DNA of 4,989 nucleotides from the IMG/VR virus record IMGVR_UViG_2537561713_000001; one strand, given 5' to 3'. The position numbers are program-made. This document shows, piece after piece, positions 1 through 3,000 of the stretch; the stretch's first letter is position 1, and every line of letters starts with the position of its first letter. Origin of the DNA: a virus. Lineage: Duplodnaviria; Heunggongvirae; Uroviricota; Caudoviricetes.

Positions 1-3000
1 TACTTAAAGTAACCCGCAAATTTTGTGAGTTACTTAAAGTAACCCGCAAATTTTGTGAGTAGTTTAAAGCTACCCGCAATTCTTTAAGGTCATTACCAAC
101 AACTTTGAAAAAGTGTTTCCCTTCAACGAAGCGTACTTTGTTCTCATGATGATTCTGGCGAATACGCACCGGCTCAGTGCCGTAAAGCTGCGCCAAAAGT
201 TCGGTGGTAATAACAGGAATCTGGTTATGGGTGATCGGGGAGAGAGTTTCAACAGAAATTTTAGTTGTCATAATGACGCCCTCTGGTGGTTTCTTAATAA
301 CTCACCACCGACGACGCCAATCGTCTGGTGGTGAACTGTGCAGGGTTGGCGTAACCGGGAAACCGACCGGCGCGGATCTCTCCGCCCCCACACAGCCCAC
401 CATAATTCAGATGTGCGCGTGCATACGACAATAAAAAACACGCTCGCGGCGTGTATCTGTCGCGGTCTCTATCCAGGACGCCAATCCCGACGCCAGATTT
501 TGCTGGCGTTTGAGGAATATAGCCCCGAATAAATCATCACGTCAATCACCTTGTTTTCCTCGCACGATGTCTTAGCCACCGGATATCCCACAGGTGAGCC
601 GTGTAATTGAAGGTTTTTACGTCAGATTCTTTTGGGATTGGCTTGCGTTTATTTCTGGAGCGTTTCGTTGGAAGGTATTTGCAGTTTTCGCAGATGATGT
701 CGGTGATACTTCGTCGCTGTCGCCTCATGCAGCCCTCCTGACGCCCAGCCCGATCGCCATCAATGCCGCTTTGGATACGGTAGTAAACATCCGTCGAGGA
801 CTGATGAACGGTCGCCAAATCAGCAACATTGAGCCTTTGCTGTTTCCCTTCTTCTCCAGCCCTGTCGATGGTTCGATAAAATTAATCCGTCCATCAGTGA
901 TGATGCGAACTTCGTCAACACTCTCCAGAGCCTTGCTGAACCATCCGACAGACATATCCTCTGGCACAAGCATCACTACCGTCTGTCGCTGTTGTATGCA
1001 CTGCTCAGCGGCTTTTTCCACCCACGGCCTGATATTGCTGTACGGTGGGTTATTCCAGATTGCACCGTGGCTTATCCACTCAGAATTTAGCGCGTCGTCA
1101 GCCTCAGTTAGCCAGTGAGCGCACAGAGCGTTTTTGTCGCTCGCAGCTGAATCCAGCCAGAATCCAAACTCAATATCCAGCGCATCAAAAAGCCAGAGCG
1201 GCGTTTGCCAGCAGTCCTTGTCGTGTGCTGGCGTATTTGATTTGATAGTCATGCAGCCTTCCCTTTTCGTTGTGACCATTCATACTCTCGCCGGGAGTCA
1301 TCACTCCACCGCACGTTGCGCTCTGAGCCGAACCAGAACATGATTTCGATAAGCTCAGTCATGCTGGCCTTTCGCATTTTGCTGGTACGCACGCCAAGCA
1401 TGACAACGCCACCGTCGATACCAGGCGCACTTCTTTGCTCCAGTTTTTTGGTCTTAAGCCACAGGGCAGTGAACAGGTCTTTCCAGTCTTCCGGCGCCAG
1501 CCGTTGACCATGCCATAGCACCTGACGCGAAACATCGTTCAGCATCGGCCACATGCGGTCATTCTGCGCTTTGCTGCGCTTGGGTTCTTTAACGTGGACT
1601 TCGTGGGGTGACTTGTCGTCGATGGGTAGTGAGAGAATGGCGTCTATGGCGTTATTTCTGATTGCTTCGTTGCGAAGCAGAAAGGTTTGCTTCATCTCCT
1701 GCTCTCCGGTTCCATTTTTCAGTAGCCGCAGCAACTGATGGTGCCCATGCCACCCTGGCTTCACAGAGGTCACATTCTGCATAGCCCCACACATCAATAT
1801 TTATTCCGGCCTCAACCCACAGACGAGCATTACCGCCGCAAAACGGACATTCTTTTAGCTTTGGCTGGGTTAATGATAGGTCGCTCATGCTCACTCCTTC
1901 ACTTAAAATCCAGACTCCGGATAATTCTGTTGCGCTGAAACTCATTGTTGAGTTTGAACAACCGTCGAAGAACACGGTCACGCGGATAGCGTCGTGCGGC
2001 AGGTGAATGCTCATACAACTCATCAAGCGGCAAACTGGACGATGAACGATACCGATACCAACGCACCAACTCTTCACGAAAATTAGCCCTGACAAGCTCA
2101 GCTATCGTACTCATTTCTTAAAACCTCCTCAAACGCATTCTGACGCATTTTTCATTCTCGCTGCTTATCGGTATACCTTGCACGTGCTTACCTCACCACA
2201 GAGCGATTGTGATGCCTTAAAAGCGATTTATTGAAGTGATATTTGCTTAATCGAAATTCTTTTCTTTGATTCCTGCGGCCCTGATGGCTTTCATTACTGC
2301 AATTACCGTTTTGTCACGCCCATCCTCATAACCCATCGCATAAGCACCTTCTTCACCATCTTTCCAAAGGTCGTCATTCGATTCGGGCCAGTCGATATCC
2401 AGTTCAATAGCTGCTCGCGATGCCTGCCATAAAGCCCACCAATCATTTAAGGAGTGACGAATATCCATGCTTGAAAATGCGAAGTACCTATCACCATTTC
2501 TTGCCTCGGTTATCATCTCGAATGGTAATCTCAATTTTTTGGCAACGTATTCCTCAAACTGCTTTCTTGATTCGTCCATATCAATCACCGTTAGTCGTTT
2601 CACTCACGAATCTGACAAAACCAGCCATGTTAATTTGCATGAGTTTTTTCAACACTTTGTCTCGTCGGCTACGTTTTGGTTTTGGCCTGTGATTGAATCT
2701 TTCACAAACTGGAAGGCTCGATGATTTCCAGTACCTATTACGCCTTGCTCCATCTTCAGCCATATCGGCATGAATAAGGTCTGCGAGTGTGCTCATATTC
2801 ACCTCTTCCAGTTACATTGGTTTTGTAATGTTGCTAGTCATCGTTCGAATAACAAAATGCGTAAGTAACCTTGCTTTCCACATGTAAATCTATTCAAGGC
2901 GAGATAAATCTACGAATACCGGACCTTTGTAATCTGGTCTTGATGCCCTTATGTATGAGCTAATAGTTTGTGCATCTTGCTTGTCCAGATTCATGACTTC

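What the first reader, a model, noticed from the sequence alone, without database searches (positions are those of the whole stretch)
1652..2796. Two tandem two-gene modules, each led by a paralogous 71-aa basic protein with a different downstream partner
Two small proteins (2581..2796 and 1899..2114) share about 35 percent ungapped identity over their full length (MST.A.L...RY.SSSLP...RD.VL..L) and are very basic. Each is translationally coupled to a different partner: an unrecognised 110-aa acidic protein (TGA-T-ATG junction) and a Lar/RalR-family restriction-alleviation protein (10-nt gap with AAGGAG). A conserved small partner swapped between different effectors looks like a modular system (adaptor, chaperone, antitoxin or regulator) in what appears to be an anti-restriction cluster. 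I could not place the small protein or the 110-aa partner in a characterised family from memory.
Basis: partly seen in the sequence, partly recalled or inferred. Interest (0 to 1): 0.8.

Follow-up and report, generated by a model that had tools for sequence, protein, structure and literature searches.

The report
Two DUF7301 genes in nin region
The two small basic proteins are real, anciently diverged copies of a catalogued phage family of unknown function (DUF7301) in the tightly packed, mosaic 'nin' region of a Shiga-toxin phage, and their different downstream genes look like ordinary cassette swapping in that region rather than a dedicated adaptor-effector system.

Summary
Two 71-aa ORFs on the minus strand (2796..2581 and 2114..1899) both match Pfam DUF7301 (E 1.6e-31 and 3.8e-26) and match each other (BLASTP E 2e-16). 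They are basic (pI 10.4 and 10.8). One abuts a 110-aa acidic protein (Pfam PF26207, Phage_phiTE_015; TGA-T-ATG). The other abuts a 78-aa Lar-family protein (10-nt spacer carrying AGGAG).

The window is 100% identical to the nin region of Stx2 phage Stx2a_WGPS4. RefSeq E. coli genomes already label these genes "DUF7301 family protein (x2)".

The "adaptor/antitoxin module" reading is only partly supported:
- Downstream neighbours of DUF7301 are very variable, with about 23 families across 272 genes. Five unrelated genes follow the #2 allele at one identical junction.
- Upstream neighbours are just as variable, and in most subtypes they are just as tightly joined.
- The 110-aa partner lacks any nearby DUF7301 in 60 of 74 evaluable loci.
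- Some DUF7301 genes are followed by ninB, a terminase gene or an opposite-strand gene.
- Tight ATGA-type junctions run through the whole nin region.

The two copies came together by mosaic recombination, not by tandem duplication. Neither protein has a fold or sequence match to anything characterised, so function remains unknown. The finding is ordinary and of low-to-moderate interest.

The parts
2581..2796 (-). DUF7301 paralog #1 (71 aa, pI 10.35), clade that is always followed by a PF26207-like gene
   Evidence: Pfam PF23975 E 1.6e-31; PHROG 1785; 3rd-codon-position excess of variable sites
2247..2579 (-). 110-aa acidic protein (pI 4.75), Pfam PF26207 Phage_phiTE_015 / PHROG 343; conserved N-terminal MDESRKQFE and C-terminal WQASRAAIELDIDWPE...AAGIK with a variable middle; start 1 nt after the DUF7301#1 stop
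1899..2114 (-). DUF7301 paralog #2 (71 aa, pI 10.80); not annotated in several RefSeq phage records, where a 141-aa ORF in another frame is called instead
   Evidence: Pfam PF23975 E 3.8e-26
1889..1898 (-). 10-nt junction AGGAGTGAGC carrying the Shine-Dalgarno sequence for the next gene; identical in front of five unrelated downstream genes, with homology ending just after their ATG
1652..1888 (-). 78-aa Lar-family restriction-alleviation protein, overlapping the ninB start by 44 nt; occupies the single-gene variable slot between DUF7301#2 and ninB
   Evidence: TIGR03655 61.4 bits, PF14354; slot geometry
1249..1695 (-). ninB (Orf recombination mediator), the conserved right-hand border of the variable slot
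   Evidence: PF05772 E 2.1e-48; NinB start lies 180-264 nt after the DUF7301 stop whichever cassette is present
2115..2246 (-). 132-nt non-coding gap before DUF7301#2; no promoter, terminator or stable RNA structure detected
   Evidence: z-score -0.39
2812..2994 (-). PHROG 21123 gene (60 aa when intact), here cut short by a TAG at 2892-2890; intact copies end 14-15 nt before DUF7301#1, so 'module 1' is really part of a three-gene block
2432..2995 (-). Mosaic cassette (PHROG 21123 gene + DUF7301#1 + first 49 codons of the 110-aa gene) that replaces 92 nt of phage 2851; the left joint lies inside the 110-aa gene
   Evidence: blastn of the window against phage 2851, WGPS8 and 933W
3017..3044 (-). 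Intrinsic terminator hairpin plus T-run, conserved after the replication genes in related phages; by position the lambda tR2 equivalent, so both DUF7301 genes lie downstream of it
   Evidence: conserved 52-nt block 2996-3046; the tR2 analogy is from my own knowledge of lambda
3043..3654 (-). HNH_3 + AP2 endonuclease gene, within a 658-nt insertion (3047-3704) relative to phage 2851

Best explanation
These are two independent, stand-alone accessory genes of the lambdoid nin region. Both belong to the small Enterobacterales-phage family DUF7301.

They lie downstream of a tR2-like terminator in the pR (early right) operon. They would therefore be made as delayed-early proteins once N-type antitermination reads through. 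That step is inferred from position.

Each encodes a basic, roughly 70-aa, predicted three-helix protein. Its only strongly conserved part is a central patch: R21-Y22, S26, L28-P29, E32, P38, R45-D46-R47-V48-L49. I infer that this patch binds a host macromolecule, either a nucleic acid or an acidic protein, and that the protein acts on its own as a non-essential host-takeover or counter-defence factor. This biochemical role is a low-confidence inference.

The two copies did not arise by local duplication. They are anciently diverged alleles (35-45% identity) brought together when a cassette (PHROG 21123 gene + DUF7301#1 + the 5' half of the PF26207 gene) recombined into a 2851/933W-like backbone. 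That backbone already carried DUF7301#2-Lar-ninB.

The tight joins to downstream genes are the normal stop/start packing of nin-region genes. The 'swapped partners' reflect a one-gene cassette slot between DUF7301#2 and ninB, with exchange breakpoints at the shared ribosome-binding junction. This is classic lambdoid mosaicism, not an adaptor-effector relationship.
For: Identity and setting:
- The window is 100% identical to Stx2a_WGPS4. Gene order is dnaB, HNH, terminator, nin genes.
- Family membership is shown. The family is small: 55 clusters at 50% identity among 1.84 billion proteins. It is found in Escherichia, Salmonella, Klebsiella, Cronobacter and Rosenbergiella.

Independence from neighbours:
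- Downstream clusters number 25, or about 23 families once the Lar variants are merged. Upstream clusters number 30.
- Upstream junctions are tight in 10 of 12 subtypes.
- PF26207 loci have no DUF7301 nearby in 60 of 74 cases and have four other kinds of upstream ORF.
- In a Cronobacter prophage, DUF7301 and PF26207 are separated by three genes.
- DUF7301 is followed by an opposite-strand gene in Rosenbergiella, by a terminase gene, or directly by a NinB-like gene.

Slot model:
- The junction is identical in front of five unrelated genes.
- ninB starts 180-264 nt after the DUF7301 stop in most loci, whichever of four of these cassettes is present; E5 loci and a few others have ninB further away, at 681-795 nt.

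Mosaic origin: the breakpoints against phage 2851 are at 2431/2432 and 2995/2996, and the first lies inside the PF26207 gene. All 16 two-copy loci share this one arrangement.

Nin-wide packing: PMC8022706 describes it, and 4-nt ATGA overlaps occur at dnaB/ninA-like, ninB/dam and dam/ninE in this window.

Structure: the AF2 model has pLDDT 76.5 with helices at 4-25, 30-36 and 44-70.
Against: - The clade containing DUF7301#1 (three subtypes whose pairwise identity falls from 64% to roughly 40%) is always followed by a PF26207-like gene: 71/71, 11/11 and 1/1 evaluable loci. That adjacency has survived considerable divergence in a very mosaic region.
- The window's Lar allele is never seen without DUF7301#2 upstream: 77/77 loci and 198/198 loci.
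- Basic small proteins sitting next to acidic ones (pI 10.4 beside 4.75, and 10.8 beside 5.28) would suit a complex.
- No direct evidence exists for any biochemical activity. No fold or sequence match was found, so the 'binds a host macromolecule' step is conjecture.
- The IMG/VR loci are highly redundant E. coli and Salmonella prophages, so the counts overstate the number of independent events.
Confidence: 0.6

Rival explanations
1. Modular adaptor, chaperone or regulator. On this reading a DUF7301 protein binds, stabilises, targets or regulates the product of whatever gene is translationally coupled downstream, and different DUF7301 alleles are matched to different effectors.
For: - Each window copy is coupled to its downstream gene by a 1-nt or 10-nt junction.
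- The #2 allele and its sister allele share an identical junction in front of five unrelated genes.
- The #1 clade is always followed by a PF26207-like gene.
- This Lar allele always has DUF7301#2 upstream.
- The charges of the pairs are complementary.
Against: - Upstream neighbours are equally variable and equally tightly coupled.
- PF26207 has no DUF7301 nearby in 60 of 74 loci.
- DUF7301 occurs alone, or before ninB, a terminase gene or an opposite-strand gene.
- Downstream gaps are 39-252 nt in most loci of the Klebsiella-phage subtype.
- A single identical #2 allele would have to serve five unrelated partners.
- The direction of dependency is opposite in the two pairs.
Confidence: 0.15
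2. Toxin-neutraliser pair. On this reading the Lar protein behaves like the Rac prophage RalR DNase toxin, and DUF7301#2 is its protein antitoxin or inhibitor. That would explain why this Lar is never found without it, while DUF7301#2 can be found without Lar.
For: - The Lar allele has DUF7301#2 upstream in 77/77 and 198/198 loci.
- DUF7301#2 has other downstream genes in 26 of 153 loci, and is retained where Lar is frameshifted or truncated.
- There is weak similarity to the NCBIfam RalR model (E 1.6e-6).
- The gene order, a small upstream gene followed by a coupled downstream gene, resembles type II toxin-antitoxin systems.
Against: - The RalR equivalog score is 28.7 bits against a cutoff of 113.
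- All Lar copies found are at least 80% identical (>=95% in 118 of 119 phage records) and sit in one conserved block. The co-occurrence is therefore a single linkage group, not repeated independent association.
- From my own knowledge, the Rac RalR antitoxin is an antisense RNA, not a protein.
- Neither protein hits PADLOC.
- The Lar family is far broader than the tiny DUF7301 family.
- The other DUF7301 copy pairs with an unrelated protein that clearly does not need it.
Confidence: 0.07
3. Replication-linked or early-operon factor. On this reading DUF7301 works with the replication module it so often follows (for example by modulating the helicase or host replication proteins), or it acts on early-operon transcription or RNA. 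Its downstream neighbour would be irrelevant.
For: - DUF7301 is commonly the first or second gene after dnaB, P or ren and the tR2-like terminator.
- It is basic and helical, with an Arg/Lys-rich segment.
Against: - It is found behind unrelated replication systems: lambda P type, DnaB type and primase-helicase type.
- It is also found far from any recognisable replication gene.
- This window has two copies but only one replication module.
- It has no similarity to known replication or antitermination factors.
Confidence: 0.1

Closest known systems
Pfam DUF7301 (PF23975) / PHROG 1785
   Same: Both 71-aa proteins are full-length members, aligning to positions 1-64 of the 65-position model. RefSeq E. 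coli genomes already label the same two genes 'DUF7301 family protein (x2)'.
   Different: Nothing differs. The family has no known function, and no paper in the searchable library mentions it.
Lambdoid nin-region mosaic gene cassettes (modular theory of lambdoid phage evolution; tightly packed ATGA-joined nin genes)
   Same: - The position is between the replication genes and ninB, downstream of a tR2-like terminator.
- Stop and start codons overlap or abut.
- Exchange breakpoints sit at gene boundaries.
- Neighbours vary on both sides (PMC8022706).
   Different: Two diverged alleles of the same small gene in one nin region is uncommon. It occurs in 16 of 258 sampled loci and in 55 of 5,426 complete E. 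coli genomes.
Adaptor-effector gene pairs, such as the conserved small adaptor or chaperone genes upstream of variable secretion-system effectors
   Same: A conserved small gene lies directly upstream of varied, unrelated downstream genes.
   Different: - There is no obligate pairing.
- The 'effectors' occur without the 'adaptor'.
- Upstream genes vary just as much.
- Stand-alone copies exist.
Lar / RalR restriction-alleviation proteins (TIGR03655, PF14354) and the Rac RalR/RalA type I toxin-antitoxin pair
   Same: The gene downstream of DUF7301#2 is a bona fide Lar-family zinc-ribbon protein.
   Different: It fails the RalR equivalog cutoff (28.7 against 113 bits). It sits in the nin region rather than the early-left region of Rac. 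No RalA-like RNA was found by Rfam.
Pfam PF26207 Phage_phiTE_015 / PHROG 343
   Same: The 110-aa acidic protein is a member.
   Different: The family is uncharacterised. This copy is an internal chimera whose 3' 61 codons are shared at 99.9% nucleotide identity with phages that lack DUF7301#1.

Membership tests
Pfam DUF7301 (PF23975) | Score above the curated gathering threshold (27 bits) over the full model | tested here: met
   108.6 and 91.4 bits, model positions 1-64 of 65
Pfam DUF7301 (PF23975) | Conserved core R-Y..S.LP..E.....P......RD(R/K)V(L/M) | tested here: met
   Both window proteins carry every nearly invariant column of a 40-member alignment
Lar family restriction alleviation (TIGR03655 / PF14354), for the gene at 1652-1888 | Score above the curated cutoffs | tested here: met
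   61.4 bits against 39.6; 37.8 bits against 28.6
Lar family restriction alleviation | Alleviates type I (EcoKI) restriction in vivo | not testable with these tools
   Needs a plating assay
RalR type I toxin (NF007260 equivalog) | Score above the equivalog cutoff (113 bits) | tested here: not met
   28.7 bits
RalR type I toxin | Antisense RalA-type sRNA antitoxin | tested here: not met
   No Rfam hit in 1500-2800 on either strand at E<=1
Type II toxin-antitoxin or adaptor-effector two-gene module | Obligate co-occurrence of the two genes across genomes | tested here: not met
   PF26207 has no DUF7301 nearby in 60 of 74 loci. DUF7301#2 lacks Lar in 26 of 153 loci. Only the narrow Lar allele is always paired.
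Type II toxin-antitoxin or adaptor-effector two-gene module | The small gene leads the unit, with variability confined to the downstream side | tested here: not met
   There are 30 upstream neighbour clusters, and upstream junctions of -8 to +25 nt in 10 of 12 subtypes
Type II toxin-antitoxin or adaptor-effector two-gene module | Physical interaction between the two products | not testable with these tools
   No multimer prediction or experiment was available
Known anti-phage defence system components (PADLOC) | HMM match | tested here: not met
   No hits for either DUF7301, the 110-aa protein or Lar
Moron (autonomously expressed prophage insert) | Own promoter and terminator flanking the gene(s) | tested here: not met
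   Only the tR2-like hairpin at 3044-3017 was found. There is no minus-strand promoter-like site in 1500-3800.
Lambdoid nin-region gene | Located between the replication genes and ninB/Q on the same strand, with packed junctions | tested here: met

The most novel reading that the evidence does not exclude
DUF7301 proteins could be generic escorts or neutralisers for the products of a hypervariable nin-region cassette slot. On this reading a small basic protein, translated from the same shared ribosome-binding junction, binds acidic counter-defence effectors (Lar, PF26207 and the small ORFans) and controls their stability, timing or toxicity. DUF7301 would then be a genomic flag for undiscovered anti-defence genes in enterobacterial temperate phages. 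The data do not exclude this for the clade that is always followed by PF26207-like genes, or for the Lar block.
Probability: 0.1. Interest if true: 0.65.

Novelty: already known. Interest (0 to 1): 0.25.

Why it matters
If the modular reading were true, DUF7301 would mark a slot for finding new phage counter-defence genes in Shiga-toxin phages and other enterobacterial prophages. As the evidence stands, the value is practical:

1. It corrects a recurrent RefSeq phage misannotation. The 141-aa 'Lar-like' ORF is really DUF7301 plus a 78-aa Lar.
2. It documents a well-defined single-gene exchange slot between DUF7301 and ninB, with an identical translational junction.
3. It flags DUF7301 and PF26207 as small, tractable phage families of unknown function. 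Parts of this locus occur in about 15% of complete E. coli genomes (790 of 5,426), including Stx phages.

Tried and rejected
- A profile of 40 family members against PDB sequences found nothing (best E 1.4).
- NCBIfam and PADLOC had no hits for DUF7301 or the 110-aa protein.
- Literature searches for 'DUF7301' and the phi24B locus tag found no papers.
- The genome-contig scan with the family alignment found no confirmed relative, because the search pattern was too narrow. I used a hand-made degenerate DNA pattern instead.
- Dual coding of DUF7301#2 with a long Lar isoform is rejected. The alternative frame is closed in 30 of 113 full-length Lar loci, and the long ORF has a GTG start with no Shine-Dalgarno sequence.
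- Recent tandem duplication is rejected. The copies share only 35-45% identity, belong to different subtypes, and #1 arrived on a separate cassette.
- A regulatory RNA or promoter in the gaps before each DUF7301 is rejected. There are no Rfam, promoter or terminator hits, and folding z-scores are -0.39 and +0.33.
- BTP1_048 as a Lar homolog is rejected. It shares only the ...ASQRSNQK tail that overlaps the ninB start.
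Full report
**What the window is.**
The window matches Stx2-converting phage Stx2a_WGPS4 at 100% identity over positions 1-4910. It also matches many other Stx and lambdoid phages of E. coli O157:H7. All genes are on the minus strand. In order they are:
- dnaB-type helicase (3733 to the window end)
- an HNH_3+AP2 endonuclease (3654..3043)
- an intrinsic terminator hairpin (3044-3017)
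- a truncated PHROG 21123 ORF
- DUF7301#1 (2796..2581)
- a 110-aa acidic protein (2579..2247)
- a 132-nt gap
- DUF7301#2 (2114..1899)
- Lar (1888..1652)
- ninB (1695..1249)
- a Dam-family methylase (1252..725)
- ninE (728..546)
- an antirepressor region

This is the nin region of a lambdoid phage. By position the hairpin is the equivalent of lambda tR2. That last point rests on my own knowledge of lambda.

**Checking the observation.**
Both 71-aa proteins are full-length members of Pfam DUF7301 (E 1.6e-31 and 3.8e-26) and of PHROG 1785. They align to each other at 45% identity over residues 1-56 (E 2e-16), and at 35-39% over the full length. They are basic, with pI 10.35 and 10.80.

They are TGA-T-ATG before the 110-aa gene, and TGA-AGGAGTGAGC-ATG before Lar. 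Lar passes the curated cutoffs of TIGR03655 and PF14354. The 110-aa protein is acidic (pI 4.75). It belongs to PHROG 343 and to Pfam PF26207, named Phage_phiTE_015.

**Gene model for DUF7301#2.**
Several RefSeq phage records do not annotate DUF7301#2. They call a 141-aa 'Lar-like' ORF in another frame across it. That call is an artefact, for four reasons:
- The long ORF starts at a GTG with no Shine-Dalgarno sequence, whereas the short Lar has AGGAG 5 nt before its ATG.
- The Lar domain begins at residue 10 of the short form.
- In 30 of 113 full-length Lar loci a synonymous-looking TTT-to-TTA change (F70L in DUF7301) puts a stop 5 codons before the Lar ATG in the Lar frame. DUF7301 stays open in every locus.
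- Variable sites in DUF7301 genes concentrate on third codon positions.

The phi24B record and current RefSeq E. coli genomes already use the short model. The E. coli genomes name both small genes 'DUF7301 family protein'.

**The family.**
A profile search of 1.84 billion representative proteins found only 55 clusters at 50% identity. Named members come from Escherichia, Salmonella, Klebsiella, Cronobacter and Rosenbergiella phages or prophages.

Members are 62-111 aa long. They share a conserved core: ST..(E/D)L...D..E......RY..SSSLP..E(R/K)...(R/K)P....(Y/F)(R/P)RD(R/K)V(L/M). AlphaFold2 predicts three helices, at 4-25, 30-36 and 44-70, with pLDDT 76.5.

Nothing characterised resembles it:
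- PDB by Foldseek gave no match.
- BFVD gave no match.
- PDB sequences by profile gave no match.
- NCBIfam and PADLOC gave no hits.
- The literature library holds no mention of the family.

**Testing the 'module' idea by genomic context.**
I collected loci from IMG/VR, annotated phage records and metagenome contigs. I located 272 DUF7301 genes with a family HMM. These fall into 12 subtypes at 75% identity.

Downstream neighbours fall into 25 clusters, or about 23 families once the three Lar variants are merged.
- The #1 subtype and two related subtypes are always followed by a PF26207-like gene: 71/71, 11/11 and 1/1 evaluable loci.
- The #2 subtype is followed by Lar in 124 of 153 loci. In 26 of the other loci it is followed by an unrelated 68-aa, 61-aa (membrane-like) or 60-aa ORF, or directly by a NinB-like gene; one locus is ambiguous and two end at the contig edge. 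Its sister subtype also precedes an unrelated 98-aa ORF.

Five unrelated genes follow the same junction, TGA-AGGAGTGAGC-ATGA, and homology ends right after the start codon.

**The controls argue against a dedicated partnership.**
1. Upstream neighbours are at least as diverse, at 30 clusters. In 10 of 12 subtypes the upstream junction is as tight as the downstream one, at -8 to +25 nt. In the window itself, the intact form of the PHROG 21123 gene would end 15 nt before DUF7301#1.
2. Among the 80 best PF26207 loci (65-100% identical to the window protein), 60 of 74 evaluable ones have no DUF7301 within 2.5 kb. The gene there follows two different small membrane-like ORFs, a 53-aa ORF or a 32-aa ORF. 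Phages 2851, WGPS8 and 933W carry a 92-aa PF26207 homolog right after dnaB or ren with no DUF7301 upstream. In a Cronobacter prophage the two families are three genes apart.
3. Divergent DUF7301 genes are followed by an opposite-strand DUF4145 gene 145 nt away (Rosenbergiella), by a terminase small-subunit gene, or by assorted ORFans. Most loci of the Klebsiella-phage subtype have gaps of 39-252 nt.
4. The window's Lar allele always has DUF7301#2 upstream (77/77; 198/198). However, every Lar copy found is at least 80% identical (>=95% in 118 of 119 phage records). This is therefore one linkage block, not repeated independent association.
5. The direction of apparent dependency is opposite in the two pairs.
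6. Stop/start overlap is a long-known general feature of nin regions (PMC8022706). It occurs at three other junctions in this window.

**How the arrangement arose.**
Against phage 2851, the window is collinear at over 99.8% identity except in two places.
- One is a 658-nt insertion (3047-3704) carrying the HNH endonuclease gene.
- The other is a 564-nt segment (2432-2995) that replaces 92 nt of phage 2851.

The second segment carries the PHROG 21123 gene, DUF7301#1 and the first 49 codons of the 110-aa gene. Its left joint lies inside the 110-aa gene, at the border between that family's variable middle and its conserved C-terminal half.

The two DUF7301 copies are thus diverged alleles brought together by recombination. 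All 16 two-copy loci in my sample have this same arrangement. It occurs in 55 of 5,426 complete E. coli genomes, while parts of the locus occur in 790.

For the #2 allele and its sister subtype, ninB starts 180-264 nt after the DUF7301 stop in most loci, whichever of four of the cassettes is present; E5 loci and a few others have it 681-795 nt away. It starts at -10 nt when there is no cassette. This describes a one-gene exchange slot bounded by DUF7301 and ninB.

**Best explanation.**
The two DUF7301 genes are independent nin-region accessory genes. The evidence shows their family membership, their position, the variability on both sides, the separability of the partners and the mosaic origin of the two-copy arrangement.

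Three steps are inferred:
- That they are delayed-early genes, expressed after antitermination through the tR2-like hairpin.
- That the conserved central patch of a basic helical protein binds a host nucleic acid or acidic protein.
- That the role is a dispensable host-takeover or counter-defence function.

I give about 0.6 to 'independent genes, ordinary mosaicism'. I give much lower confidence to any specific biochemical activity.

**Rivals.**
- Adaptor, chaperone or regulator of the downstream product: about 0.15.
- Antitoxin or inhibitor of a RalR-like Lar: about 0.07. The RalR equivalog cutoff is not met, at 28.7 against 113 bits.
- A factor linked to replication or early transcription: about 0.1.

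The conserved DUF7301-PF26207 adjacency in one clade and the charge complementarity keep the first rival alive. Multimer prediction and simple expression and deletion experiments would settle it.

**Verdict.**
The genes belong to catalogued families of unknown function and are already annotated as such in RefSeq E. coli genomes. The arrangement is explained by well-known lambdoid mosaicism. Interest is low to moderate.

Noticed in passing
window 324-522 (- strand): Rfam finds a C4 antisense RNA (RF01695, 66.7 bits), isrK (RF01394, 74.7 bits) and the c4-a1b1 target element (45.9 bits) upstream of the antirepressor gene. This is a P1/P7-type RNA immunity switch controlling ant in this Stx phage.
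   Followed up: no
window 1-79: A 30-nt unit is repeated in tandem 2.6 times at 89% match, inside or next to the antirepressor-region coding sequence.
   Followed up: no
window 3043-3654 (insertion 3047-3704): An HNH_3+AP2 endonuclease gene lies in a clean 658-nt insertion, relative to phage 2851, between the dnaB stop and the tR2-like hairpin. It looks like a free-standing homing endonuclease.
   Followed up: partly
window 2812-2994 (- strand), TAG at 2892-2890: The 60-aa PHROG 21123 gene upstream of DUF7301#1 carries a premature stop in this phage, leaving 34 aa. It is intact in 47 IMG/VR loci. The 20 loci that, like the window, lack an intact copy have the HNH 3' end/terminator ORF just upstream.
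   Followed up: partly
window 1652-2077 (- strand); L001-L003: RefSeq and GenBank phage records (WGPS4, 2851, WGPS8, 933W L0092) annotate a 119-141-aa 'Lar-like' or hypothetical ORF that overprints DUF7301#2. This is a misannotation that has propagated into PHROG 599, whose profile is 262 positions long.
   Followed up: yes
window 3632-3736 (- strand): A 34-aa ORF starts at an ATGA overlap with the dnaB stop. Its first 23-32 nt are conserved after dnaB, P or ren in other phages, where a roughly 30-aa ORF is annotated as ninA. Here its 3' part runs into the HNH insertion.
   Followed up: no
IMG/VR loci among L004-L258 (clusters E6, E17); 933W and Min27: Lar is often damaged while DUF7301#2 stays intact. 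Three loci have a 212-aa Lar-NinB fusion, eight have a 56-aa truncated Lar, and Lar is split into two pieces in 933W-type phages.
   Followed up: partly
alignment A4; window 2432-2579: PF26207 proteins keep a conserved N-terminus (MDESRKQFE.W) and C-terminal half but have a hypervariable, indel-rich middle. Some end in the ...ASQRSNQK tail borrowed from the ninB-overlap region, which points to frequent internal recombination or deletion.
   Followed up: no
L421 4415-5065 (Rosenbergiella prophage): An opposite-strand DUF4145 gene is inserted just after DUF7301 in the nin region. This may be a defence or exclusion moron.
   Followed up: no
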